The translations under genes were made by a program, and so were the position numbers. Below are positions 1-50,343 of a DNA stretch of 64,000 nt, piece after piece; within the stretch, counting starts at the first letter, position 1, and every line of letters begins with the position of its first letter. The notes beneath the pieces were generated by a model. That model was given only the letters and a program-made list of their open reading frames with translations, ran no database searches and was not told the origin of the DNA. The stretch comes from a virus. The DNA is taken from positions 1 through 64,000 of the IMG/VR virus record IMGVR_UViG_3300045988_146774. One strand, written 5' to 3'.

Positions 1-1494
1 CGGGAGTATCCCAAAGTTTGTGTAAACCTCCAAACTGATGTAAGATAGAATTACTCAGTTTGGAGGTTTATTTTATGGCAAGAAAAAAGGATTCACCACA
101 AAAAGCAGCGCTTAGAGAACTCATGGGAAACTACCTGAAAGAAAACAATGTAAAAGTAAAAGATGGAACAGATGTTAATTCCATTATGCGGGATATGATG
201 TCTATCATTTTGGAAGGTGCCCTTGATCAGGAACTGGATGAAGAACTGGGATATTCCAAGTATGATTATCGAAATAAAGAAACCGATAATTCCAGGAATG
301 GATATTCCCAGAAAACGTTACATACCAGTTACGGAGATATGGAGATTGATATTCCAAGGGATCGAAAAGGTGACTTCGAACCACAGGTTGTAAAGAAGTA
401 TCAGAATTCGATTACGCAGGACATGGAAGAAAAGATCATTTCCATGTACGCAAAAGGAATGACTACTGCCGATATAGAAAGCCACATGCGTGAATTATAT
501 GATCTTGAGATCTCCGACAGTACTGTCAGCCGGATTACTGATAAGATCCTGCCAATAGTAAAAGAATGGCAGGAAAGGCCATTAGAAAGTGTGTATGCTG
601 TTGTATTTATGGATGCGATCCATTTCCATGCCCGTAATGAGGGGGCGGATTGTAAAACGTGCTGTTTACATTGCGATTGGGATCGATATGGAAGGACGTA
701 AGGATGTCCTCGGAATGTATGTTGGTCAAAATGAAAGTGCCAAGTTCTGGCTCTCCATCCTGAATGGCCTGAAAAACCGGGGTGTAGAAGATATATTGAT
801 TGCGTGTGTGGATGGACTGACCGGTTTTCCACAGGCAATTGAAGCAGTATTTCCCCAGACCGAGATCCAGCAGTGCATCATCCATCAGATCAGGAACACC
901 ACGAAATTTGTTTCTTACAAAGAGATCAAACCACTTATGGCAGATCTGAAGCGTGTATATGCAGCTCCTACAGAAGAAGTTGCATTGGCAGAACTGGACA
1001 GCTTTGACGAAAAATGGAGCGGGAAATACCCTAAGATTGCAAAGTCATGGAAAGATAACTGGGCAAATCTTTCAACGTATTTTAAGTATCCGGAAGCTGT
1101 CAGACGTCTGATCTATACCACGAACACGATTGAAGGATTTAACCGCCAGCTCCGAAAAGTCACCAAATCCAAGACGGTATTTCCATCCGATGACAGTCTC
1201 TTGAAAATGCTGTATCTGGCCATGATAGATATCACCAAGAAATGGACGGGACACCGTCAGGATTGGGGACAGATCCATTCTCAGCTGGAAATTTTCTTCG
1301 AAGAAAGATTGGAAAGGTTATAAGCAGAATGCATGCTAGGCAGGGCTGGCACAGCCAGTCCTGCTTGACATGCCTTAAAACTGCATTATAATACAAACAA
1401 GGACAGAACCCTGAAAAACAGGTTCTGTCCTCGATAACTAATGACATATCTTATATCAGTTTTTTCTGTTTACACAAAACTTGAAACGCTCTCG
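1..1494 (+). mobile_element. IS256-family insertion sequence; left terminus at or beyond the window start
   Basis: IS256/Mutator-type transposase frames bounded by imperfect terminal inverted repeats (c. 1-55 vs reverse complement of c. 1440-1494; shared AAGTTT(T)GTGTAAAC...AACTGAT(G/A)TAAGATA). Confidence 0.8.
75..1323 (+). pseudogene. IS256-family transposase, frame broken by an extra G in a G5 run (641-645)
   Basis: ORFs 60-701 and 589-1323 join into one transposase (..VFMDAIHFHARNEG / RIVKRAVYIAIGIDMEGRKDVLG..). Deleting one G of GGGGG at 641-645 restores a single frame. SD GGAGG lies 8 nt before the ATG at 75. Confidence 0.85.
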
Positions 1495-30167: not shown

Positions 30168-30404
30168 TTTTACTCCTCCGGAAGTCTGCCTTGTACAAAC
30201 AGACTTGCCTTTTGTACGGGCATCTGTTAAGATTTATGTACAACCCGTTACTGTAATAGTTGCGTGTTGAATGTATTGTATTAAGTGTGCGTTTGCGTTT
30301 AGCTGAGCAAATATTAATGCACACTAAAAAGGACAGGAGGTTTTATTTGCCTTCTGTCTTTTGTACTATGCATTTGTTTTTTTGATTTGCCTTTTAATTT
30401 TGGG

Positions 30405-31947: not shown

Positions 31948-31992
31948 AAGAACTCCTCACTTTCTTAATTTGCATTTTGTGAAAATGCTCAC

Positions 31993-32024
31993 TATAAAAA
32001 GGCGGAACTTCTTGCTCCGCCTTT
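31993..32024 (-). terminator. intrinsic terminator (bidirectional shape)
   Basis: AAAGGCGGA-N9-TCCGCCTTT stem flanked by A/T runs, after the stop at 32047. Confidence 0.6.
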
Positions 32025-32046
32025 CGAACTAAACATTTTTTTGTGA

Positions 32047-32883
32047 CTATGCAAAGTAGTGTTTAATTACAATGTTGCTAATGCATGTTGCAAGACCACT
32101 GTAATCATATGTAGTCTTACCAGATTTCTTGTCTTTCTTAACTTTGACAAGTGTGTTAACCTGACGATGGCTGAAATCGACTTTACCAGTCTTGTCGTTT
32201 ACAGAAAATTTATTCTGAAAACCTTTGACATAACAATCATTCAAAAGTTTCTTATCTTCTGCCGTAAGTTTAACACGAGTCTTGTCCGTGTAAGGTGTTT
32301 CAAACGGTAAGCTGAAAGTTTTCTTGATTATAGTCTCAAGCTCTTTAGACGCTGACTTATAAGCGTCCTTTACTTCTTTTGACATTACAATATTGCCGTC
32401 TTCACCAGCTTTAGAATTGATATGAATCGTCTCTAAAGCATTGTAAAGTGCTTCTGATTCGAACGCTGGGATAATCGCATACTTCACAAGTTTAGAGTTA
32501 TCCCATGATGCAAGGACTCTAAGAACAGTCCGTACTACATCTTTGTCATTCTTGAAATGGTCATGATTCTCTGCTGTCATTACAGAGATAACTTTATTGT
32601 ATACCTCTAATGTATCAGCAGAGTTGTTCCGTGCGGTTTCAAGATTAGCCTGAGCCGTTTCGAGTTTGATTGTAAGAGCTTTTTCTTCTACTTCTTTCTG
32701 CTCTGGAGTTTTATCCTTGTTATCTTTGAGGTTCACAAGCTGTTTTTCAATCCGTGAAATGTCAGTCTGTACAAGCTGGATTGTCATTTCATACTCTTCG
32801 TGAGAGATTGCGCTCATAAGTTCTTCTGTCTGTTCAACTGTAGCTTTTTTGTTAAGGAAATTGATTTTTAATGTGTTTTTCAT
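32047..32883 (-). CDS. hypothetical protein; first gene of the leftward arm, monocistronic
   Basis: 278-aa ORF with SD AGAGGT and its own terminator. No motif recognised. Confidence 0.7.
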   Translation of the reverse strand: MKNTLKINFLNKKATVEQTEELMSAISHEEYEMTIQLVQTDISRIEKQLVNLKDNKDKTPEQKEVEEKALTIKLETAQANLETARNNSADTLEVYNKVISVMTAENHDHFKNDKDVVRTVLRVLASWDNSKLVKYAIIPAFESEALYNALETIHINSKAGEDGNIVMSKEVKDAYKSASKELETIIKKTFSLPFETPYTDKTRVKLTAEDKKLLNDCYVKGFQNKFSVNDKTGKVDFSHRQVNTLVKVKKDKKSGKTTYDYSGLATCISNIVIKHYFA

Positions 32884-32949
32884 AATAATACCTCTACTTT
32901 CTTCTGCTATGCAGATATGGATTAATTAGTTTAATGTGTTATGCACACT

Positions 32950-33790
32950 ATAAAAGGGTAGACTGGTAGCGTATACCTGGATTCTACCCCTCTAACTATG
33001 TATAACTTGGTTATGCAAGCGTAAATCTAGCGGTCATGCGGATTGGTTTTACCCAACACCAAGAAGTCAGATGTTACTCTGTACTCTGCCATACTAGATA
33101 ATACTTGTATCTTTATGTGTTGTCTGGCTAGAATAAGTATGGTTATGAACTTCTAACCAAGTCAGCATTTTTTGTTAGCCGAGTTATTAATTGACTGGTT
33201 GTTTTATCTATCATTGAAGCACTACCTAGAATATACCTCTAAGTAAAACCCCTGTGGTCATTGCTACGCTGGGAACTACCCAACACTGTCATATTGACAG
33301 ACGTCCTTCGGATAATAAGTCGGAAGAACTGCACTATTTTTTCGAGACTTTGTGCGTATTGTCTACAATATTAAATTTGTAGTGGGGAAAACCTGTAATA
33401 ATACAGGAAACATTAACATTTTATTAATCATAATGATTACCCACGCAACCTATAAAGCTTATAGTCTTTAGTAGTCCTGTCTAGGACAAGATACTGTACC
33501 TAGTCTACAATACAGACTGTTTATTTAATTATTTGTGGTAATTGTTCACGAACTGTGATAGAATCGAATTGTGGTTACAACTCTATCACAGTTGTCAAAC
33601 TAGGTTATATATTCAAGATATTCTTGCTCGGATGTGAACAACTGGTACTTGTTCTCGTCCGAGATATAACCCATGTACCCAAAGGGTACTATGTAACCTT
33701 TAATCACATGATTCACCACCTTCCATATGATTGTAGGGGTTTTAACGACTTTTCCTTGTCATATTTTTCATATGTTATCATCTTCTTTTT
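32950..33790. ncRNA. candidate large structured RNA or structured leader (strand and ends unknown)
   Basis: No credible ORF in the region. Many perfect stems: 32956-62/32983-89, 33286-33300, 33392-33407, 33553-62/33582-91, nested 33603-33671, 33675-33689, 33724-30/33768-74. Confidence 0.35.
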
Positions 33791-33846
33791 TTAATAATTT
33801 GTGGTTGCTACCCACCTGTAAGCTATAAGTGCCATTCCGTCAATCT

Positions 33847-34049
33847 CTTGACTTATTTCAAGTCTAACATTTTACTTGATGTTTGTCAATATGTTTTCTT
33901 GATTTTTTGTGAAGTATCCGAGCGTTGTTAATCTTACCAGAAAATCAATTGATATATTGAATTATATCAAGTTTTGTTGTCCTCTTGATGTCTCATATAT
34001 TACAGGATATTTTTATAAATGTCAAGCGTCATTCTTGATTTTTTTCAAG
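33847..34049. promoter_or_regulatory. cluster of CTTGA/TCAAG half-sites and palindromes (putative operator array)
   Basis: Nine CTTGA/TCAAG pentamers (33847, 33858, 33875, 33898, 33967, 33984, 34022, 34034, 34045) plus the palindrome TTGATATA-N6-TATATCAA (33949-33970). A TATAAT lies at 34074-34079. Confidence 0.4.
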
Positions 34050-34119
34050 TTTTTATGAAAAAACGTGTTTCTTCTATATAATGCAAAAAAAAGAAAGTTG
34101 TTCATGTAATAACTGAACA

Positions 34120-34320
34120 GGTAGAAAGATAGTTATAGTATATATTTGTATAGTTATATGTATAATATGTATTATTGCTATAATAGTAGGAATATAGATA
34201 ATATTGTATAATGTTAGTATATTGATATATGTATATGGTATATATGATGTATATGTCATAGTATATTATTATATGTATTATAGTATTATTATATAGCGTA
34301 TGGTATATGTTGTATAGTTG
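34120..34320. repeat. TA/TG-rich low-complexity tract, nearly C-free on the plus strand
   Basis: I counted 3 C in 200 nt. The tract is degenerate (G)TATATGTAT-type units. The 16-mer TATTATTATATGTATT also occurs at 28483-28498. Confidence 0.7.
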
Positions 34321-34602
34321 GTAGTGTAGTCGTGTGGCGCGACAGGTTGGGAACTGATTGAGATAGATTAATGTTAGTTATTGATTAATATTTATGGTTG
34401 TATTATTAATTTATTAGTGTATGTCAGGTTAGGGATTGAGCGCAGATTTGAAAAAGTGTGTATTTATGTGATAGTATAGTATGGTTATGTTATTAGTATA
34501 CTGTATTGCGGTATAGGATTGACTGCTAGACTGGATTTTTGAACATTTAGTGTGGGATTAATTTGTATATAGTTTAGCGTTTGATGTATGAATGTTTAGT
34601 AG

Positions 34603-34645
34603 TTATCCACGTAGTATAGTATAGTTTTTCACATTATGTGGATAA
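34603..34645. promoter_or_regulatory. inverted pair of DnaA-box-like 9-mers (candidate origin element)
   Basis: TTATCCACg at 34603-34611. TGTGGATAA at 34637-34645 is a perfect TTATCCACA on the minus strand. Both lie in an AT-rich non-coding hub. Confidence 0.5.
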
Positions 34646-34885
34646 GTATATAAATGATTGTTTACTTATTAGTAATATATAAAAAAGCTATAGCACGATA
34701 TTCTGTTATAGTTTTAAGCTATAGCAACGTCTTCCCCTGTACAGGAAGTACAGAACCCTAAAAATTAATTTCCAATGAAAGAAAATTTTCATTTAGGTAT
34801 CGCTAAAATAAAAAGCCGTTCTTCCCCAGAGCAGACAACAAAAAAATTTTTATATCTATTAGAATATTTTATTTTACTAAATTTT

Positions 34886-34917
34886 CCCGTACTTTTCCCA
34901 TTTTTACGGGTTTTTTT
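34886..34917 (+). terminator. intrinsic terminator inside the non-coding hub
   Basis: CCCGTA-N13-TACGGG stem followed by T7. Confidence 0.6.
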
Positions 34918-35026
34918 AGTATAGAATTTTATACTTTCACTATAAATAAAGACGGGGGTACTTAAAACTCGAACAAACGTTCGCAGTTTGCCAAGACTCA
35001 CTAGCTGATCAATCTACACACCAACT

Positions 35027-35322
35027 CAAAAATTTCACATCCAAAATTCTTCTCCACTCTTCTCCACCAGTCTCCAAAACACCAAAAATCACCATTCAAT
35101 CCTAATCCTCAAAATATCCCTATTCTAAGCCAAAAATTACACTTCCCTCCTTTCCAACCCTTTATCGTACCCCTTATCGTAAAAACTCCCATTTTAAGCC
35201 AAAAATCACGTCTCAAACCTCAAAAATTGATCACACACTTATTCAAAAATTACTCCCACAACCAGACTTCTTCCTATTATATAAGGATTTTTTCGATATC
35301 ACTTTTCTCGTTCAAAAATCAC
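35027..35322 (+). repeat. iteron-like dispersed repeats CAAAAAT(T/C)AC plus two short tandem repeats
   Basis: Exact copies at 35083, 35131, 35200, 35244 and 35313, with variants at 35027 and 35221. Tandem CTTCTCCAC x2 (35048-35066) and CCCTT(T)ATCGTA x2 (35158-35182). Confidence 0.6.
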
Positions 35323-35417
35323 ATTATACATCACATCCAATCTCGCAATCTCATTCAGAGAATATATAAGAGACGCTTAAGAACTACAGATTCATAAAAA
35401 GAAACGGGGAAATAAAT

Positions 35418-36299
35418 ATGCGAAAAACAAACACAACAGAAATAGCAATGGCTGAAACATCGGAAACTAAAACAACATCAACACAGACTCCAATCGAAAT
35501 CGCACTTAAGATTGATGAAAATGGAATGACAACTGCAAGCCAGTTATATTCTTTCTTAGAATTAGATCCTTCTAATTTTTCAAGATGGTGCACTCGTAAT
35601 ATTAAAAATAATAAATTTGCTATAGAAAATACAGATTATATAGTTTTCGTCATGAAGGAAGAAAACTCATCTGGAGGCAGACCAAGAACTGACTATCATC
35701 TCACATCAGACTTTGCAAAGAAATTATCTATGACAGGCAATTCAGAAAGACATGAACAAGCCAGGGATTATTTTATTGCATGTGAACAAGGATTAAAAAT
35801 AGCCACAACCAAATTAAAATCACAACAGAACAATTTAGAACCGCTTTTTGATGCTATTACTACTCTTACGCAAACAATTGCATCCATGCAGCAAGATATT
35901 TCTTCTATCAAAAAATCATCTCAAAAGAAGAAACTTTCGGAAAAGAAATATTCTCGTTGGAAAACAAATACATTCTCAAAGTTAAATACTCTTACGCAAT
36001 ATGTAAATGAGAATTCAGACCAAACATTGCAACTGAAAGATACCATTCATATCACAATCAATGAGTTGGAAGACACATACAACATAGAACTTTCAGATTA
36101 TGTGCAGGCTTATAAATCAGAATTCAATCTTGAAACAGAACCATACGTAATAGATGTTATCAATCATTATAAAGACATCCGTGACATGTATACTCTCGTT
36201 TTAGATCATATTATGGAAAAACTAAATCTAAACACAAGAGATAAATCTACAGATAAAAATATTTTTGATATCCTTGCAGAAAATATGGCGATTGCATAA
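35418..36299 (+). CDS. AntA/AntB-type phage antirepressor
   Basis: ASQLYSFLELDPSNFSRWCTRNI...FAIENTDY...GGRPRTDYHLTSDFAKKLSMTGNSERHEQARDYFIACEQ matches the AntA domain pattern. Confidence 0.8.
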   Translation: MRKTNTTEIAMAETSETKTTSTQTPIEIALKIDENGMTTASQLYSFLELDPSNFSRWCTRNIKNNKFAIENTDYIVFVMKEENSSGGRPRTDYHLTSDFAKKLSMTGNSERHEQARDYFIACEQGLKIATTKLKSQQNNLEPLFDAITTLTQTIASMQQDISSIKKSSQKKKLSEKKYSRWKTNTFSKLNTLTQYVNENSDQTLQLKDTIHITINELEDTYNIELSDYVQAYKSEFNLETEPYVIDVINHYKDIRDMYTLVLDHIMEKLNLNTRDKSTDKNIFDILAENMAIA

Positions 36300-39416: not shown

Positions 39417-42029
39417 ATGAGTGAATTTGGAATTAAAATAAAGAATATTGAAGCAAGCACTTTATATGAATATAACAATGGTGTCAGAGATCATTATGAA
39501 TACAAAGATGCAATGTTTACCAACAGTCTATTTAGTGATTATCTAAAAGATAACGGATTAAAAGTATGGAAAGAAGAATCTACTAGAGATATTATCTGTT
39601 TAGAATTTAATTTTGGATCAAGATCGTATGAAGAAGAAATTAATCATCTAAAAAAAGTCGCAATTAAAGCTCGTACAGAATATAAATTAGCCAAATCTTT
39701 TAAATATCAAACGCAAATTCAAAAAAAGAAAAATAAGCGTCAAAAATTATCCCAATTATTTAGAGAAGCACAATTGAATAAAGAAAAATATCTAAAGCAT
39801 ACCAAAGAAGATATTCGCACTATTTTTTATAACGATGGTGTAAATGTGGAATATATAACTAGAAAAAAGAATGGGGATATTATAAAACGAGAAACCATTC
39901 ACTACAAAATGTTATATAGAAGCACTGGAAAAGCAAAAAAAGGTTCCTGTATGTTTATATGCGATAGGCTATATAAAAAAGCTATAAAATTCTTATACAT
40001 GGGTATTAAATTGCCAAAGAAGAATTCTCCTATCGTAGAAATTAGTGCCTATGCCCCTCTTATATCTAGTGCAATAGTCGGAAAGGTAAAAATCAATCCT
40101 AAAAATATTTTAATATTAAAAGATGTCGATCGTTATTTTGATACAAAAGTTGTTGCAGTTAAAACAGATGAGAACCGGCAATGTTATGCGGAGCATATTG
40201 ATAATTATAAATTAAAAAATACTCTATTCGACGGACAAGCTCTTATAGATAGTAGTATTTTTCCAGAATGGGGAAATGGATATATCTTATTAAGACATCA
40301 TTTTTGTAAAATGGCTGCATTTAGTACGAACATCCAACAATTTTTTAAAGATTATTTTGGAGATGACTATTACTCTGCTACTGTCAAAGATATGTTTGGG
40401 AATGAACATTATGTAAAAGATATAGAATTGATAACCACAGATAATGCAATGAAGTGGTTAAAATTTGATATATCTTATGAGTATTGGTGCGAAAAAGTTT
40501 ATGAGAATAATTGCATGTTTGGAATTGTTAAGACAGCTCATGAAAGTAAACTCGGGGAAGTTCAAAGAATGAGTTATCAAATGGTCAATTGTTTAGATGA
40601 ATCTATTATGGAGAATGTAGTCAAGGAAAGTGTTGATTATGTTGAAATGCTTAAACAGAATGATGACGAATTTTTAAAGTATCTTGAAAAAAATAAGAAT
40701 TTTTCAAATGATTACGAAGTTTTAATTGCATTATGTGAGCAGAATCGAGATTTCTTAAGAAGCTCATATTTTAGAAGAAGAAAAAGAAAAATTATTGAAA
40801 ATTATGTATTAAATATGAAAAGTGGAAAACTAATACAGAATGCAGAAAATCTTGTCGTAGTTGGTTCTCCATATGCTATGCTCTTATATGCAGCAACGGG
40901 TGAGGAAAATTCTGTTGATGATGATGACACATTTTTTGTAGAATCTGGAACAGTTCAATGTTATACAGAGAGATTTAATAGTGGTGAGCATCTTGCGTTT
41001 TTTAGAAGTCCATTCAATAGTCAAAACAATTTAACATATTTACATAATACTTATCATAAAAAGTTAGATAAATATTTCAATCTTGGACGACAGTGTATTG
41101 CAATTAATATGAATGGGACTGATGCACAAGATAGAAACAATGGGATGGACATGGATTCTGATAGCGGGTATACAACCAATCAACCGGATATAGTTCAACA
41201 TGCAAAAAAATGTTATTCAGACCATCCTACTATTGTAAATCTTATTCCTAGAGATTCAAAAAAATATAATCGATCTATGGATGAATATGCATTGATTGAT
41301 AATAACCTTGCGAATTCACAATTAGATATAGGGTTGTCTAGTAATCTAGCACAAATAGCTAGAACATATTCTTGCAATTTCAATGACGAAAAATATGTAG
41401 ATTACGTTTGTATTTTAAGTGTTTTGGCTCAGGTCGCAATAGACAATGCCAAGCGTCGCTTTGATATTGATCTTGGAGATGAAATAAAACGAATCCAAAA
41501 AGATTTAAATATAAAAACAAACCTTTATCCGTCATTTTGGCTACTTATTAAAAAGAATTTCAAAAAAGACAATATAAATGAAGAATTAAAATGCCCTATG
41601 AATTATTTATATAATTTAGATTTGTCAGAGTTCCATAATTCGACTTCTACTCTTCCAATGTCACATTTTTTCAATAAGTTTGAAATGTCAAATAATATTA
41701 GAACATGTAGAAAAGTTGAAGATCTGATTGCAAAATATTCTTTAAGTCTTTATGATATTAATTCTGGAGATTCTGAAGATAATGATTATTTGTTATTGCG
41801 AAAAGATTTTGATAACTTGATTTCAGATATCCAAAAAATAAAAATATCCAAAAATTATCTAGGATTATTTTCGTGGATGATTGATCGAGCATTTAAAATT
41901 TTGCCAGGAAGTTTAAGAAATCAAAAAAGTATATCTTCTGTTCTAAATAAAAACAAACCCCTTCTTTTAAAAACTTTATACGAAGTAAATTCGTCAAATT
42001 TACTAAAATGTTTCTCAAAAAACTGTTAA
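39417..42029 (+). CDS. putative YonO/RdRP-like single-subunit (two-barrel) RNA polymerase
   Basis: 870 aa. FFRSPFNSQNNL is followed c. 45 aa later by CIAINMNG..NNGMDMDSDSG (Asp578/580/582, nt 41148-41162), mirroring the R-x-P ... G-x-D-x-D-G-D catalytic loop of RdRP/YonO-type polymerases. No search was run. Confidence 0.55.
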   Translation: MSEFGIKIKNIEASTLYEYNNGVRDHYEYKDAMFTNSLFSDYLKDNGLKVWKEESTRDIICLEFNFGSRSYEEEINHLKKVAIKARTEYKLAKSFKYQTQIQKKKNKRQKLSQLFREAQLNKEKYLKHTKEDIRTIFYNDGVNVEYITRKKNGDIIKRETIHYKMLYRSTGKAKKGSCMFICDRLYKKAIKFLYMGIKLPKKNSPIVEISAYAPLISSAIVGKVKINPKNILILKDVDRYFDTKVVAVKTDENRQCYAEHIDNYKLKNTLFDGQALIDSSIFPEWGNGYILLRHHFCKMAAFSTNIQQFFKDYFGDDYYSATVKDMFGNEHYVKDIELITTDNAMKWLKFDISYEYWCEKVYENNCMFGIVKTAHESKLGEVQRMSYQMVNCLDESIMENVVKESVDYVEMLKQNDDEFLKYLEKNKNFSNDYEVLIALCEQNRDFLRSSYFRRRKRKIIENYVLNMKSGKLIQNAENLVVVGSPYAMLLYAATGEENSVDDDDTFFVESGTVQCYTERFNSGEHLAFFRSPFNSQNNLTYLHNTYHKKLDKYFNLGRQCIAINMNGTDAQDRNNGMDMDSDSGYTTNQPDIVQHAKKCYSDHPTIVNLIPRDSKKYNRSMDEYALIDNNLANSQLDIGLSSNLAQIARTYSCNFNDEKYVDYVCILSVLAQVAIDNAKRRFDIDLGDEIKRIQKDLNIKTNLYPSFWLLIKKNFKKDNINEELKCPMNYLYNLDLSEFHNSTSTLPMSHFFNKFEMSNNIRTCRKVEDLIAKYSLSLYDINSGDSEDNDYLLLRKDFDNLISDIQKIKISKNYLGLFSWMIDRAFKILPGSLRNQKSISSVLNKNKPLLLKTLYEVNSSNLLKCFSKNC

Positions 42030-42350: not shown

Positions 42351-42356
42351 CATATG

Positions 42357-42428
42357 CTGGCGGTAAAGGTTGGATCTTGGCGTGGCTCATAACCATGTAA
42401 AAACTCGGTTCAATTCCGGGGCTTCAGC
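42357..42428 (+). tRNA. degenerate tRNA-like sequence with CAU anticodon loop
   Basis: Good anticodon arm CGTGG-CTCATAA-CCATG and T-arm CTCGG-TTCAATT-CCGGG. The acceptor pairs only 5/7, the D-loop is short and there is an extra nt at position 26. Confidence 0.35.
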
Positions 42429-42437
42429 AACTTGTCT

Positions 42438-42510
42438 AGGGATATAGTTCAGTTGGTAGAACGCTTGATTTGGGATCAAGAGGTCGCACGTTCGAGTCGT
42501 GTTATTCCTA
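42438..42510 (+). tRNA. tRNA-Pro (UGG)
   Basis: Complete hand-folded cloverleaf: acceptor AGGGATA/TATTCCT, D-arm GTTC-AGTTGGTA-GAAC, anticodon arm CTTGA-TTTGGGA-TCAAG, T-arm GCACG-TTCGAGT-CGTGT. Confidence 0.85.
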
Positions 42511-42555
42511 TTACTCCTCTCCTATTTCGGAGAGAAAAATGTACGAAAGGAATGA

Positions 42556-50005: not shown

Positions 50006-50088
50006 GGGTAGGTATGCCTAGAGGCGAGGGCAAGGCTCTGTAAAAGCCCCACAAAGAAACACCGCAGGTTCGACTCCTGCTCTGCCCA
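50006..50088 (+). tRNA. tRNA-Tyr (GUA), long-variable-region type
   Basis: Acceptor GGGTAGG/TCTGCCC, anticodon loop CTGTAAA (identical to E. coli tRNA-Tyr), T-arm GCAGG-TTCGACT-CCTGC. The variable region is unpaired and there is an A-C mismatch at 27:43. Confidence 0.7.
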
Positions 50089-50092
50089 CTAT

Positions 50093-50182
50093 GACGCATT
50101 AATCCTAAATGGTAAGGAATTAGTCTTGAAAACTAATAGTAGCCGAGTAATCGGTGTCTCTGTTCGAGTCAGAGATGCGTCG
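50093..50182 (+). tRNA. tRNA-Ser (UGA), class II
   Basis: Perfect acceptor GACGCAT/ATGCGTC, anticodon arm TTAGT-CTTGAAA-ACTAA, variable arm GCCGA-GTAA-TCGGT, T-arm CTCTG-TTCGAGT-CAGAG. Confidence 0.82.
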
Positions 50183-50343
50183 TTTTTGTCATTAAAATGA
50201 CGTAAGAATGATGATAACATTCTGACTTTGGTAGCTCGTCACTGCTAATTAAAAATAAAATATTATAGTAAAGAAATAGGCATTTCATACTTTGTGTGTG
50301 GAATGGCTTTTTATTATGGAATAAATGAAAGGAAGTGATTATT

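What the first reader, a model, noticed from the sequence alone, without database searches (positions are those of the whole stretch)
32950..33790. About 0.8 kb ORF-free segment packed with perfect stems: possible large structured RNA
No credible ORF lies between the first leftward gene (start 32883) and the AT-rich tract. The sequence has normal complexity but is unusually rich in perfect helices. Examples are GGGTAGA/TCTACCC (32956/32983) enclosing GGTA/TACC, CTGTCA-tat-TGACAG (33286), CCTGTA-ataa-TACAGG (33392) and the 10-bp CTGTGATAGA/TCTATCACAG (33553/33582). There is also a three-tier nested hairpin GGTTATAT..CTCGGA..GAACAA-loop-TTGTTC..TCCGAG-ATATAACC (33603-33671), then GTACCC-aaa-GGGTAC (33675) and CATATGA/TCATATG (33724/33768) ending in a T-run. 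Possible long-range pairings exist too, such as CTTGGTTA 33006 with TAACCAAG 33157. Large ornate RNAs of unknown function (the GOLLD, ROOL and similar classes) are known mainly from Firmicutes phages and prophages. This could be one of them, a new class, or a very long structured 5' leader of the leftward operon.
Basis: seen in the sequence. Interest (0 to 1): 0.75.

Follow-up and report, generated by a model that had tools for sequence, protein, structure and literature searches.

The report
New large structured phage early RNA
The flagged segment encodes a roughly 0.6-kb, intricately folded non-coding RNA, conserved with compensatory base-pair changes in a clade of uncultured gut phages and matching no described RNA family, which sits at the very start of the phage's early operon.

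Summary
The stems are real and lie at the stated coordinates. Stem density and folding energy alone are only moderately unusual for this genome. Comparative evidence decides the case. The segment is conserved upstream of the same early gene in 33 distinct IMG/VR phage sequences. It folds, on the window's minus strand, into at least 15 helices with heavy compensatory variation. In a three-way junction, 23 of 33 pairs change on both sides, against 3-7 in slid controls. RNAalifold energies are far below column shuffles (about 14 and 21 shuffle sd). G-U outnumbers A-C about 5-7 to 1.

The core is window 33591->33013. Tandem TTGACA-N17-TAnnnT promoters (34025, 33889) lie upstream. A conserved long hairpin with a U-run (33006-32938) lies downstream, and that hairpin recurs after the next early genes.

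No Rfam 15 family matches, including GOLLD, ROOL, OLE, raiA, HEARO and introns, and no tRNA is nearby.

- 33719-33600 is a real small protein gene, so the "three-tier hairpin" is coding.
- The terminal hairpin is a repeated punctuation element.
- The proposed long-range pairing is not supported.

Best reading: a new class of large structured phage RNA, made first in infection. Its function is unknown.

The parts
33997..34025 (-). Distal early promoter, TTGACA-17-TAATAT, pointing leftward toward the RNA.
   Evidence: Every related phage with enough upstream sequence has 1-5 such tandem promoters in the RNA sense, 57-431 nt upstream of the aligned core segment, which starts about 26 nt before P1.
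33861..33889 (-). Proximal early promoter, TTGACA-17-TAGACT with a TG extension. The inferred transcription start is near 33854.
33600..33719 (-). Small protein gene of 35-39 aa (motif KGY..P.GYMGY....Y.LF..EQEYLEYI). It is an accessory feature, present in about half of the lineages.
   Evidence: third-position and synonymous changes dominate. No PHROG match for the peptides.
33553..33591 (-). P1 hairpin (CUGUGAUAGA / UCUAUCACAG). The conserved 5' box AUUCUAUCAC forms its 3' arm.
   Evidence: A long hairpin with the box as its 3' arm is found in most lineages, with very different arm sequences.
33446..33519 (-). P2 domain. An outer helix encloses two inner helices and the conserved apical UCCUAGA.
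   Evidence: outer helix: 7 of 7 pairs with compensatory changes; inner helix: 6 of 7.
33382..33444 (-). P3 hairpin (GUGGG / CCCAC base) with a lineage-variable apical extension.
   Evidence: 4 of 5 base pairs covary.
33373..33383 (-). Conserved single-stranded box (U)AUACAAAUU.
   Evidence: nearly invariant columns.
33283..33327 (-).
   Evidence: 5 of 6-7 and 5 of 5 pairs with compensatory changes.
33220..33235 (-). Near-invariant box UAUAUUCUAGGnAGUG. UCUAGG (33230-33225) is a candidate pseudoknot partner of CCUAGA (33485-33480).
   Evidence: The pair changes to CCUGGA:UCCAGG in the L014 clade and in L035 (read from alignment A3).
33162..33183 (-). Hairpin Ha with an A-rich loop. The stem covaries (CAGC/GCUG, AACCG/CGGUU, ACGC/GCGU).
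   Evidence: 5 of 7 pairs with compensatory changes.
33124..33160 (-). Hairpin Hb. A 6-10 bp stem of unrelated sequence in each lineage closes a conserved loop of about 18 nt, UUCAUAACCAUACUUAU.
33013..33110 (-). Three-way junction. A long closing helix encloses two hairpins with conserved GUAANN hexaloops (GGGUAAnnCC).
   Evidence: 91.7% of cells paired against 32-45% when slid; 23 of 33 pairs changed on both sides against 3-7. Covariance model R1 hits 33009-33121 on the minus strand at 111.5 bits.
32938..33006 (-). Terminal long irregular hairpin, GUUAUACAUAGUUAGAGGGGUAGA...UCUACCCUUUUAUAGUGUGCAUAAC. It has a G+C-rich top, then a U-run.
31980..32045 (-). Second copy of the punctuation hairpin, just after the 278-aa gene (GGCGGA...UCCGCC UUUUUAUAGUGAGCAU). 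Its outer stem is AAAAUG/CAUUUU.
   Evidence: Second copies about 945-980 nt downstream occur in 15 related loci.
30312..30385 (-). Third, more degenerate copy of the punctuation hairpin.

Best explanation
The segment encodes a previously undescribed class of large structured RNA. The core is about 580 nt (window 33591->33013, minus strand). The whole transcript to the terminal hairpin would be about 0.9-1.0 kb.

Shown:
- The RNA-sense strand carries at least 15 helices. They include a three-way junction, and many base pairs are kept through changes on both sides across related phages.
- Several loops and joining strands are near-invariant while the stems around them vary freely.
- Consensus sigma-A/sigma-70-type promoters, in tandem in most relatives, point into the RNA.
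- A conserved long hairpin followed by a U-run closes it. That hairpin recurs after the next early cistrons.

Inferred:
- Host RNA polymerase makes this RNA as the first product of the leftward early operon.
- The hairpin ends the RNA, or is cut, so that the RNA is released from the early polycistronic precursor and occupies a gene slot of its own.
- The compact fold, through its conserved loops, binds a partner during host takeover. That partner could be a host factor or the co-varying first early protein, or the RNA could self-associate as ROOL and GOLLD do.

The biochemical function is not known. The confidence given is for the whole statement, including the inferred free-RNA role; that the segment is a real conserved structured RNA on the minus strand I rate at about 0.9.
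For: Conservation. 37 IMG/VR loci hold relatives of the downstream 278-aa protein, and the upstream DNA is conserved in patches. A motif scan gave 44 loci, with 33 clusters at 97% identity.

Covariation.
- RNAalifold energy was -113.5 (group A) and -160.3 (group B). Forty column shuffles gave -45.0 +/- 4.7 and -57.9 +/- 4.9.
- Pairs with compensatory change numbered 62 and 67, against 12.5 +/- 3.3 and 26.2 +/- 5.5.
- Three-way junction: 91.7% of cells paired against 32-45% for slid partners, 23 of 33 pairs changed on both sides against 3-7, covariation score 0.591 against at most 0.178, and 0 of 500 shuffles as high.
- 5' half: 86% and 91% paired against 38-49% slid, with 31 and 50 compensatory pairs against 11-20.
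- Hb keeps its loop sequence while its stem sequence is replaced completely.

Strand. The sense alignment folds better than its reverse complement (-113.5 vs -99.8; -160.3 vs -134.2). G-U:A-C in the predicted pairs is 165:25 and 229:49. Model R1 hits only the sense strand, once per phage.

Expression signals. Promoters are present in all relatives with upstream sequence. The terminator-like hairpin appears, and its paralogous copies between early genes.

No described family..

Coupling. The full RNA always precedes a p278 homologue. The short variant precedes other sequence in that slot; the one locus examined (L057) has an unrelated 196-aa protein.
Against: - There are no expression data. The ends, abundance and stability of the RNA are inferred from sequence signals only.
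- No separate promoter for the first early gene is evident. The RNA is therefore at least initially the mRNA's 5' leader, and a purely cis-acting role cannot be excluded.
- All examples come from one clade of related, uncultured phages. The compensatory changes are many, but they are not phylogenetically independent.
- The structures were predicted on the same alignments on which pairs were counted.
- A global alignment of all lineages was too gappy for RNAalifold. The model built from group A scores group B only 17-27 bits, so helix homology between the groups rests partly on inspection.
- Folding energy and stem density are not extreme for this genome.
- The pseudoknot rests on two double changes, and both motifs are near-palindromic.
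Confidence: 0.55

Rival explanations
1. It is a purely cis-acting leader. In this reading the fold exists only to control the early operon it precedes. It could set readthrough of the terminator-like hairpins (processive antitermination in the manner of lambda nut or HK022 put, or a ligand- or protein-sensing attenuator). Or it could protect the early mRNA 5' end from host RNases. It would have no function as a free RNA.
For: - The RNA always lies between the early promoters and the first early gene, and no sigma-70-type promoter (TTGACA-N17 spacing) fits between the hairpin and the start codon.
- Terminator-like hairpins punctuate the first three early genes, so some readthrough mechanism is needed.
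- The two conserved GUAANN hexaloop hairpins with freely varying stems resemble protein-binding boxB-type hairpins (the resemblance is from my own knowledge of boxB).
- The RNA type changes together with the downstream gene.
Against: - About 580 nt, at least 15 helices and a candidate pseudoknot is far larger than any known cis-regulatory leader or antitermination RNA. By my own knowledge, put is about 70 nt, nut about 50 nt, and T-box and riboswitch leaders at most about 300 nt.
- No Rfam leader or riboswitch matched.
- The ribosome-binding site of the first gene lies about 45 nt beyond the hairpin and is not paired with the RNA in any model.
- No boxA-like conserved element is present. The similarity of the window's UUCGUGAACAAUUA to boxA is not conserved in relatives.
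Confidence: 0.3
2. It is a DNA-level element. In this reading the inverted repeats work as DNA, for example as cruciforms or protein-binding sites of the nearby replication origin, or as a packaging site, and are not read as RNA.
For: - The segment borders an A+T-rich tract with degenerate iteron-like repeats (34129-34306) at the switch between the two transcription arms. That tract is a plausible origin.
- Both strands fold better than shuffles.
Against: - G-U wobble pairs outnumber A-C about 5-7 to 1 in the sense reading. The sense alignment also folds 14-26 kcal/mol better than its reverse complement. DNA symmetry would not give this.
- Helices separated by about 70-100 nt covary.
- The promoters point into the segment.
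- The RNA is transcribed away from the A+T-rich tract.
Confidence: 0.04
3. It is a very diverged member of a described class (ROOL, GOLLD, OLE, or an ORF-less group II or group I intron) that the Rfam models cannot reach.
For: - It has a similar size, a phage context and an ornate multi-helix fold with conserved loops.
- ROOL and GOLLD are encoded in phages and prophages (PMC12286853).
Against: - No hit to any of these models at E<=10 in the window region, or at E<=5 in a group B relative, with permissive filters. Ten related loci gave nothing at gathering thresholds.
- It is not near tRNAs; the nearest is at 42356.
- It does not interrupt any gene.
Confidence: 0.04
4. It is a non-functional hairpin-rich spacer. 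The stems would be chance features of an A+T-rich intergenic region, conserved only because the phages are close relatives.
For: Stem density ranks only 9th of 76 tiles, and local z-scores are modest.
Against: - Flanking protein identity falls to 54-65% while stems keep pairing through double changes.
- Some stems are replaced entirely around invariant loops.
- Column-shuffle and slid-partner controls are far below the observed values.
Confidence: 0.02

Closest known systems
ROOL and GOLLD (large ornate RNAs of phages and prophages)
   Same: A non-coding RNA of several hundred nucleotides, encoded by phages of Firmicutes-type hosts. It has many helices, pseudoknot potential, conserved loops and no known function. 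Such RNAs can act as RNA-only assemblies (PMC12286853).
   Different: There is no sequence or structure match to either Rfam model. It is not next to tRNAs, whereas ROOL and GOLLD are often near tRNA islands (PMC12286853). It sits at the head of an early operon under tandem promoters, whereas GOLLD expression rises during the lysis of infected cells (PMC12286853). Multimerisation is untested.
RNase III processing hairpins between early cistrons of phage T7, and of Bacillus phage SP82 (own knowledge; not checked in a paper here)
   Same: The terminal element is a long irregular double-stranded stem with conserved sequence. It is repeated between successive early genes that are transcribed from strong host-type promoters.
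   Different: This comparison concerns only the 70-nt punctuation hairpin, not the 580-nt core. Each copy also has a G+C-rich top and a U-run, like an intrinsic terminator. Cleavage is untested.
phi29 pRNA
   Same: A structured phage RNA made from an early promoter at the start of a leftward early region. It works as a free RNA through loop-loop contacts (own knowledge; cited as an RNA homomer in PMC12286853).
   Different: pRNA is 120-174 nt and belongs to ~20-kb podoviruses (own knowledge). There is no sequence or structure similarity, and no link to packaging genes here.
lambda nut (boxB) and HK022 put antitermination RNAs
   Same: They lie just downstream of early promoters. They are hairpins whose loops are conserved while the stems vary, and terminators follow in the operon.
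   Different: They are an order of magnitude smaller. No boxA is present, no N-like protein was identified, and the effect on termination is untested.

Membership tests
GOLLD RNA (Rfam RF01998) | Match to the family covariance model, that is, the conserved 3' domain. | tested here: not met
   The whole window at gathering thresholds gave only 3 tRNAs. 32700-35600 at E<=10 gave no GOLLD row. Relatives gave none either.
GOLLD / ROOL | Frequent location beside tRNA genes or islands in phages and prophages (PMC12286853). | tested here: not met
   The tRNAs are at 42356-42511 and 50006-50183, at least 8.7 kb from the RNA.
ROOL RNA (Rfam RF03087) | Match to the family covariance model. | tested here: not met
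   no hit even at E<=10 in the window region.
OLE, raiA, HEARO and other large bacterial ncRNAs in Rfam 15 | Match to the family covariance model. | tested here: not met
Group I / group II introns | Match to intron models, and interruption of a host gene (flanking exons). | tested here: not met
   No Rfam hit. The element lies between promoters and a complete gene, and no split ORF flanks it.
Conserved structured RNA (generic) | Base pairs maintained by compensatory substitutions, above controls. | tested here: met
   (column shuffles, 3'-partner shuffles and slid-partner controls).
Conserved structured RNA (generic) | Strand asymmetry, with G-U tolerated and A-C not. | tested here: met
   G-U:A-C is 165:25 and 229:49, and the sense strand folds better than the reverse complement.
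Conserved structured RNA (generic) | A detectable stable transcript with defined ends. | not testable with these tools
   No expression data. Only promoter and terminator-like signals are available.
Intrinsic terminator (terminal hairpin only) | A G+C-rich stem directly followed by a U-run. | tested here: met
   GGGGUAGA...UCUACCC + UUUUAU. Copy 2 is GGCGGA...UCCGCC + UUUUUAU. The simple scanner missed them because their loops exceed 8 nt. Termination itself is untested.
RNase III-type processing site (terminal hairpin only) | A double-stranded stem of about 20-30 bp with internal loops, repeated between cistrons. | tested here: inconclusive
   The extended stem is predicted in both groups, but its flanks are invariant and so give no covariation within a copy. 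Paralogous copy 2 keeps the outer stem with a different sequence. Cleavage is not testable here.
Riboswitch / attenuator leader | An aptamer coupled to an expression platform that alternates with the terminator or hides the ribosome-binding site. | tested here: inconclusive
   No Rfam riboswitch hit. No alternative pairing with the terminator or ribosome-binding site appears in the models. This was not searched exhaustively.

The most novel reading that the evidence does not exclude
This is a new class of large phage RNA, the first product of infection, that works as a free particle. It would either self-assemble through its conserved loops as ROOL and GOLLD do, or form a ribonucleoprotein with the co-varying first early protein (p278). 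Its role would be to disable a host function or defence system.
Probability: 0.3. Interest if true: 0.85.

Novelty: new variant of a known kind. Interest (0 to 1): 0.68.

Why it matters
Few bacterial or phage RNA classes larger than about 400 nt are known, and most still lack a function. ROOL and GOLLD were recently shown to form RNA-only nanocages (PMC12286853), which has renewed interest in such RNAs.

This candidate has clear covariation and a defined genomic role: it is the first transcribed unit of an early operon, under tandem promoters. It also has natural variants (full, short and insert-bearing forms) and a co-varying neighbouring protein. These give concrete handles for experiments on what large phage RNAs do early in infection.

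It also shows that the early operons of these gut phages are punctuated by a conserved terminator or processing hairpin.

Tried and rejected
- Stop-codon recoding as an explanation for the ORF-free gap. All three stop codons occur in all six frames.
- BLASTN of the 2.5-kb gap against 50,697 deposited phage genomes. No match.
- One global alignment of all lineages with RNAalifold. It was too gappy and recovered only 15 pairs. A combined A+B alignment of the 3' half recovered only 4 short helices. I then worked per lineage group.
- A loose two-hairpin DNA pattern (GGGTAANACC...GGGTAA) scanned over IMG/VR. Nearly all hits were chance; model R1 confirmed only one of the first 100 new loci it returned (L084-L183).
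- A motif scan of 185,579 species genomes. It found only a 2.8-kb Lachnoclostridium MAG contig and one chance hit, so there is no evidence of prophages.
- A weak PDB hit of p278 to ribosomal protein S10/NusE (E=0.0015). It looked attractive for an antitermination story but vanished with a 12-sequence profile, leaving only coiled-coil matches. Rejected as spurious.
- An AlphaFold model of p278 without an alignment. Mean pLDDT was 58.9, too poor for a fold search.
- ColE1 RNA II-type primer RNA. Rejected because transcription runs away from the A+T-rich tract.
- Similarity of the window's UUCGUGAACAAUUA to boxA. It is not conserved in relatives.
- Pfam and PHROG searches of the flanking proteins, and a PHROG search of the small peptide. 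Nothing informative.
Full report
CONTEXT

The window is part of a large A+T-rich phage genome, about 31% G+C. It carries a large terminase subunit, BRO/AntA-type proteins and four tRNA genes. Genes to the left of 32883 are on the minus strand, and genes from 35418 rightward are on the plus strand. The flagged segment is the left part of a 2.5-kb gap (32884-35417) between these two arms. All six frames across the gap (scanned over 32600-35700) contain all three stop codons, so recoding does not explain the lack of ORFs. The 2.5-kb gap has no BLASTN match among deposited phage genomes. An 870-aa protein of the window has its closest relatives in human faecal phage contigs and, more distantly, in Enterocloster phages.

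CHECKING THE OBSERVATION

The only slip is TAACCAAG, which starts at 33154 rather than 33157.

The thermodynamic case is real but moderate:
- 32884-33800 folds with z = -6.1 on the plus strand and -8.8 on the minus strand, against 20 dinucleotide shuffles.
- The 680-nt core has z of about -4. Fifteen other 680-nt tiles of the window range from -2.8 to +1.4, apart from two that reach -4.6 to -6.3.
- In 150-nt windows the minus-strand mean z is -2.15 in the region and -0.66 outside.
- The count of perfect 6-bp local stems is 26, against 11.1 +/- 4.6 in shuffles. It ranks only 9th of 76 equal tiles.

That test is neither clearly passed nor clearly failed, so other evidence is needed.

RELATED SEQUENCES

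The 278-aa protein encoded just downstream (32883-32047, minus strand) has relatives in 37 IMG/VR contigs of roughly 8-218 kb, at 56-97% identity. The DNA upstream of the gene is conserved in patches in all of them. ORFs of 80 aa or more are few and inconsistent there. Scanning IMG/VR for the invariant 3' motif CCTTTTATAGTGTGNATAACA gave 44 loci, each with one exact match. Together the sequences form 33 clusters at 97% identity. In 185,579 species genomes the motif occurs only in a short Lachnoclostridium MAG contig and in one chance hit. That suggests Lachnospiraceae hosts and gives no sign of prophages.

STRUCTURE AND COVARIATION

I read the sequence in the sense of the leftward genes, that is, the window's minus strand. 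The alignments show near-invariant boxes:
- AUUCUAUCAC
- UCCUAGA
- UAUACAAAUU
- UAUAUUCUAGGnAGUG
- two GGGUAAnnCC hairpins
- UUAUACAUAGUUAGAAGG...CCUUUUAUAGUGUGCAUAACAC

These boxes are separated by stems whose sequences differ between lineages. A single global alignment was too gappy for RNAalifold. I therefore analysed two lineage groups separately, using sequence-only L-INS-i alignments. Group A has 10 sequences including the window, and group B has 13.

| Measure | Group A | Group B |
|---|---|---|
| Predicted pairs | 119 | 144 |
| Fraction canonical | 0.89 | 0.92 |
| Pairs with compensatory change | 62 | 67 |
| Same count, 40 column shuffles | 12.5 +/- 3.3 (max 19) | 26.2 +/- 5.5 (max 38) |
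| RNAalifold energy | -113.5 | -160.3 |
| Energy, 40 column shuffles | -45.0 +/- 4.7 | -57.9 +/- 4.9 |

The helices themselves are listed.

For the three-way junction in group A, the pair-counting tool gave the following:
- 91.7% of cells paired, against 32-45% when the 3' partners are slid by 1-3 columns.
- 23 of 33 pairs changed on both sides, against 3-7.
- A covariation score of 0.591, against at most 0.178.
- 0 of 500 shuffles as high.

The 5' halves give 86% (A) and 91% (B) paired, against 38-49% when slid. Compensatory pairs number 31 and 50, against 11-20.

Hairpin Hb is the clearest single case. A 6-10 bp stem of entirely different sequence in each lineage closes a conserved loop of about 18 nt, UUCAUAACCAUACUUAU.

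A candidate pseudoknot joins CCUAGA at the tip of P2 (33485-33480) to UCUAGG in the invariant box (33230-33225). It becomes CCUGGA:UCCAGG in the L014 clade and, apparently independently, in L035 (read). Both motifs are near-palindromic, so I rate this as tentative.

STRAND

The sense alignments fold better than their reverse complements (-113.5 vs -99.8, and -160.3 vs -134.2). Within the predicted pairs, G-U outnumbers A-C by 165:25 and 229:49. A covariance model of the three-way junction, built from group A only, finds exactly one copy per phage, always on this strand:
- the window at 33009-33121, 111.5 bits
- an unaligned relative, L031, at 80.8 bits
- L033 at 45.9 bits
- group B at 17-27 bits

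It finds nothing in a third group of phages, and only one further member of the clade among 100 unrelated loci. This asymmetry argues for RNA rather than DNA cruciforms.

BOUNDARIES AND SIGNALS

Every relative with enough upstream sequence has one to five TTGACA-N17-TAnnnT promoters in the RNA sense. They are tandem in most and lie 57-431 nt upstream of the aligned core segment, which starts about 26 nt before P1. In the window they are at 34025-33997 and at 33889-33861, the latter with a TG extension.

At the 3' end the invariant boxes pair into a long irregular hairpin (33006-32938). Its top is GGGGUAGA...UCUACCC, and a UUUUAU run follows it.

The same unit recurs in the window. One copy lies just after the 278-aa gene (32045-31980; GGCGGA...UCCGCC UUUUUAUAGUGAGCAU; outer stem AAAAUG/CAUUUU instead of GUUAU/AUAAC). 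A third, weaker copy lies near 30385-30312. In 15 related loci a second copy lies about 945-980 nt downstream, in the examined loci just past the first gene.

It is therefore a punctuation element of the early operon: terminator-like, and also long enough to be a double-stranded RNA processing site. The big RNA occupies the first slot of that punctuated operon.

33719-33600 (minus strand) is a small gene of 35-39 aa with motif KGY..P.GYMGY....Y.LF..EQEYLEYI. Several relatives have a GGAGG ribosome-binding site in front of it. Substitutions fall mainly at third positions (749/572/1403), and many codon differences are synonymous. The gene is present in about half of the lineages. It is absent from the window's closest relative L001, in which 33600-33800 is replaced. 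It contains the 'three-tier hairpin' and GTACCC/GGGTAC.

CATATGA/TCATATG lies in the non-conserved 5' UTR. The proposed long-range pairing CTTGGTTA/TAACCAAG conflicts with Hb, which is supported by covariation. CCTGTA/TACAGG is a lineage-specific tip of P3.

VARIANTS

A third group of phages (for example L043, L057, L065, L069) keeps the 5' box, most with a hairpin at P1 (not L043, L059, L069 or L079), and keeps the terminal hairpin. These phages have only about 300-360 nt between those elements. They lack the UAUAUUCUAGG box (L043 has only a 2-mismatch match) and the three-way junction.

None of these phages has a detectable p278 homologue in the next slot; L057, the one locus examined, has an unrelated 196-aa protein there. 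All full-length RNAs precede a p278 homologue. This may reflect functional coupling or simply exchange of a module.

The loop of the terminal hairpin is hypervariable. The same insert of about 270 nt occurs in several different RNA lineages, and a 100-nt insert occurs in others.

COMPARISON WITH KNOWN FAMILIES

Rfam 15 (4227 models) gives only three tRNA hits in the whole window (ARAGORN calls four tRNA genes). It gives no hit to any large RNA, intron, riboswitch or ribozyme in 32700-35600, even at E<=10. It gives nothing in ten related loci at gathering thresholds, and nothing in a group B region at E<=5. The nearest tRNA is 8.7 kb away, whereas ROOL and GOLLD are often beside tRNA islands (PMC12286853).

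The RNA resembles ROOL and GOLLD in kind: a large, ornate, phage-encoded RNA of unknown function. It is not a member of either family. A literature search found no description of it. It could still be among the thousands of unnamed candidates from human microbiomes (PMC8040213), which I could not check.

MECHANISM

Shown:
- a conserved multi-helix fold on the minus strand
- promoters pointing into it
- a conserved terminator-like hairpin after it
- repetition of that hairpin between early genes

Inferred:
- Host polymerase makes this RNA first.
- It is released by termination or cleavage at the hairpin.
- It acts through its conserved loops on a protein or on itself.

No separate sigma-70-type promoter is evident for the first gene, so the RNA is at least initially the 5' leader of the early mRNA. 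A purely cis-acting role (antitermination, stabilisation) is the main rival. A DNA-level role, a diverged known family and chance are each unlikely, for the reasons given under the rivals.

The p278 protein gave no clue. It has an N-terminal coiled coil and an unknown C-terminal domain. A weak S10/NusE hit disappeared with a profile, and the structure model was poor.

VERDICT

The finding is real and interesting. It is a new class of large structured RNA in a clade of uncultured gut phages, placed at the head of the early operon. On the left, the last 70 nt should be re-labelled as the punctuation hairpin. Function remains open and needs experiments.

Noticed in passing
window 60-1323 (+): An IS256/Mutator-family transposase is split into two overlapping ORFs (PF00872, E 2e-49 and 4e-66). 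The stretch has 41.6% G+C over 1-1000 against about 31% elsewhere, and unusually negative folding z-scores.
   Followed up: partly
window 34129-34306, extending to about 34650: An A+T-rich tract of degenerate 9-21-nt repeats (TATATGTATAGTATAT-like) lies between the two divergent gene arms. It is a candidate replication origin.
   Followed up: partly
window 33846-33863, 33955-33972, 34033-34050: Three copies of the palindrome TCTTGAnTTnTTTCAAGT are interleaved with the tandem leftward promoters. They may be operators for a repressor.
   Followed up: no
window 35082-35322: Direct repeats of the CCAAAAATCAC / AAGCCAAAAAT type, with C-rich 10-12-nt tandem repeats nearby (35048-35181), lie upstream of the rightward AntA-like gene.
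   Followed up: no
L024:5640-5905 (also L021, L036, L039, L057); L028, L030, L063, L065, L070, L072: The loop of the terminal hairpin carries the same insert of about 270 nt in phages whose RNAs belong to different lineages. It closes with GGUACAAAA/UUUUGUACC and holds an antisense ORF of 89-95 aa with no Pfam match. Its folding z-score is only -1.8. A different insert of about 100 nt occupies the same site in other phages. These may be small mobile elements.
   Followed up: partly
window 39417-42029 (+): An 870-aa protein has no Pfam domain but matches phrog_8308. It is 25.7% identical to a protein annotated as 'RNA-dependent RNA polymerase' in Enterocloster phage PMBT24, so it may be a phage-encoded polymerase.
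   Followed up: no
L057:8084-8674 (-) and equivalent loci: Phages with the short RNA variant lack a detectable p278 homologue in the first early gene slot. In L057, the one locus examined, that slot holds an unrelated 196-aa protein. RNA type and first early gene therefore change together.
   Followed up: partly
window 33600-33719 (-): The small gene's nucleotide sequence keeps nested hairpins with apparent compensatory changes between lineages (GGUUAUAU/AUAUAACC against GGCUAUAU/AUAUAGCC). RNA structure and coding may overlap there (read).
   Followed up: no
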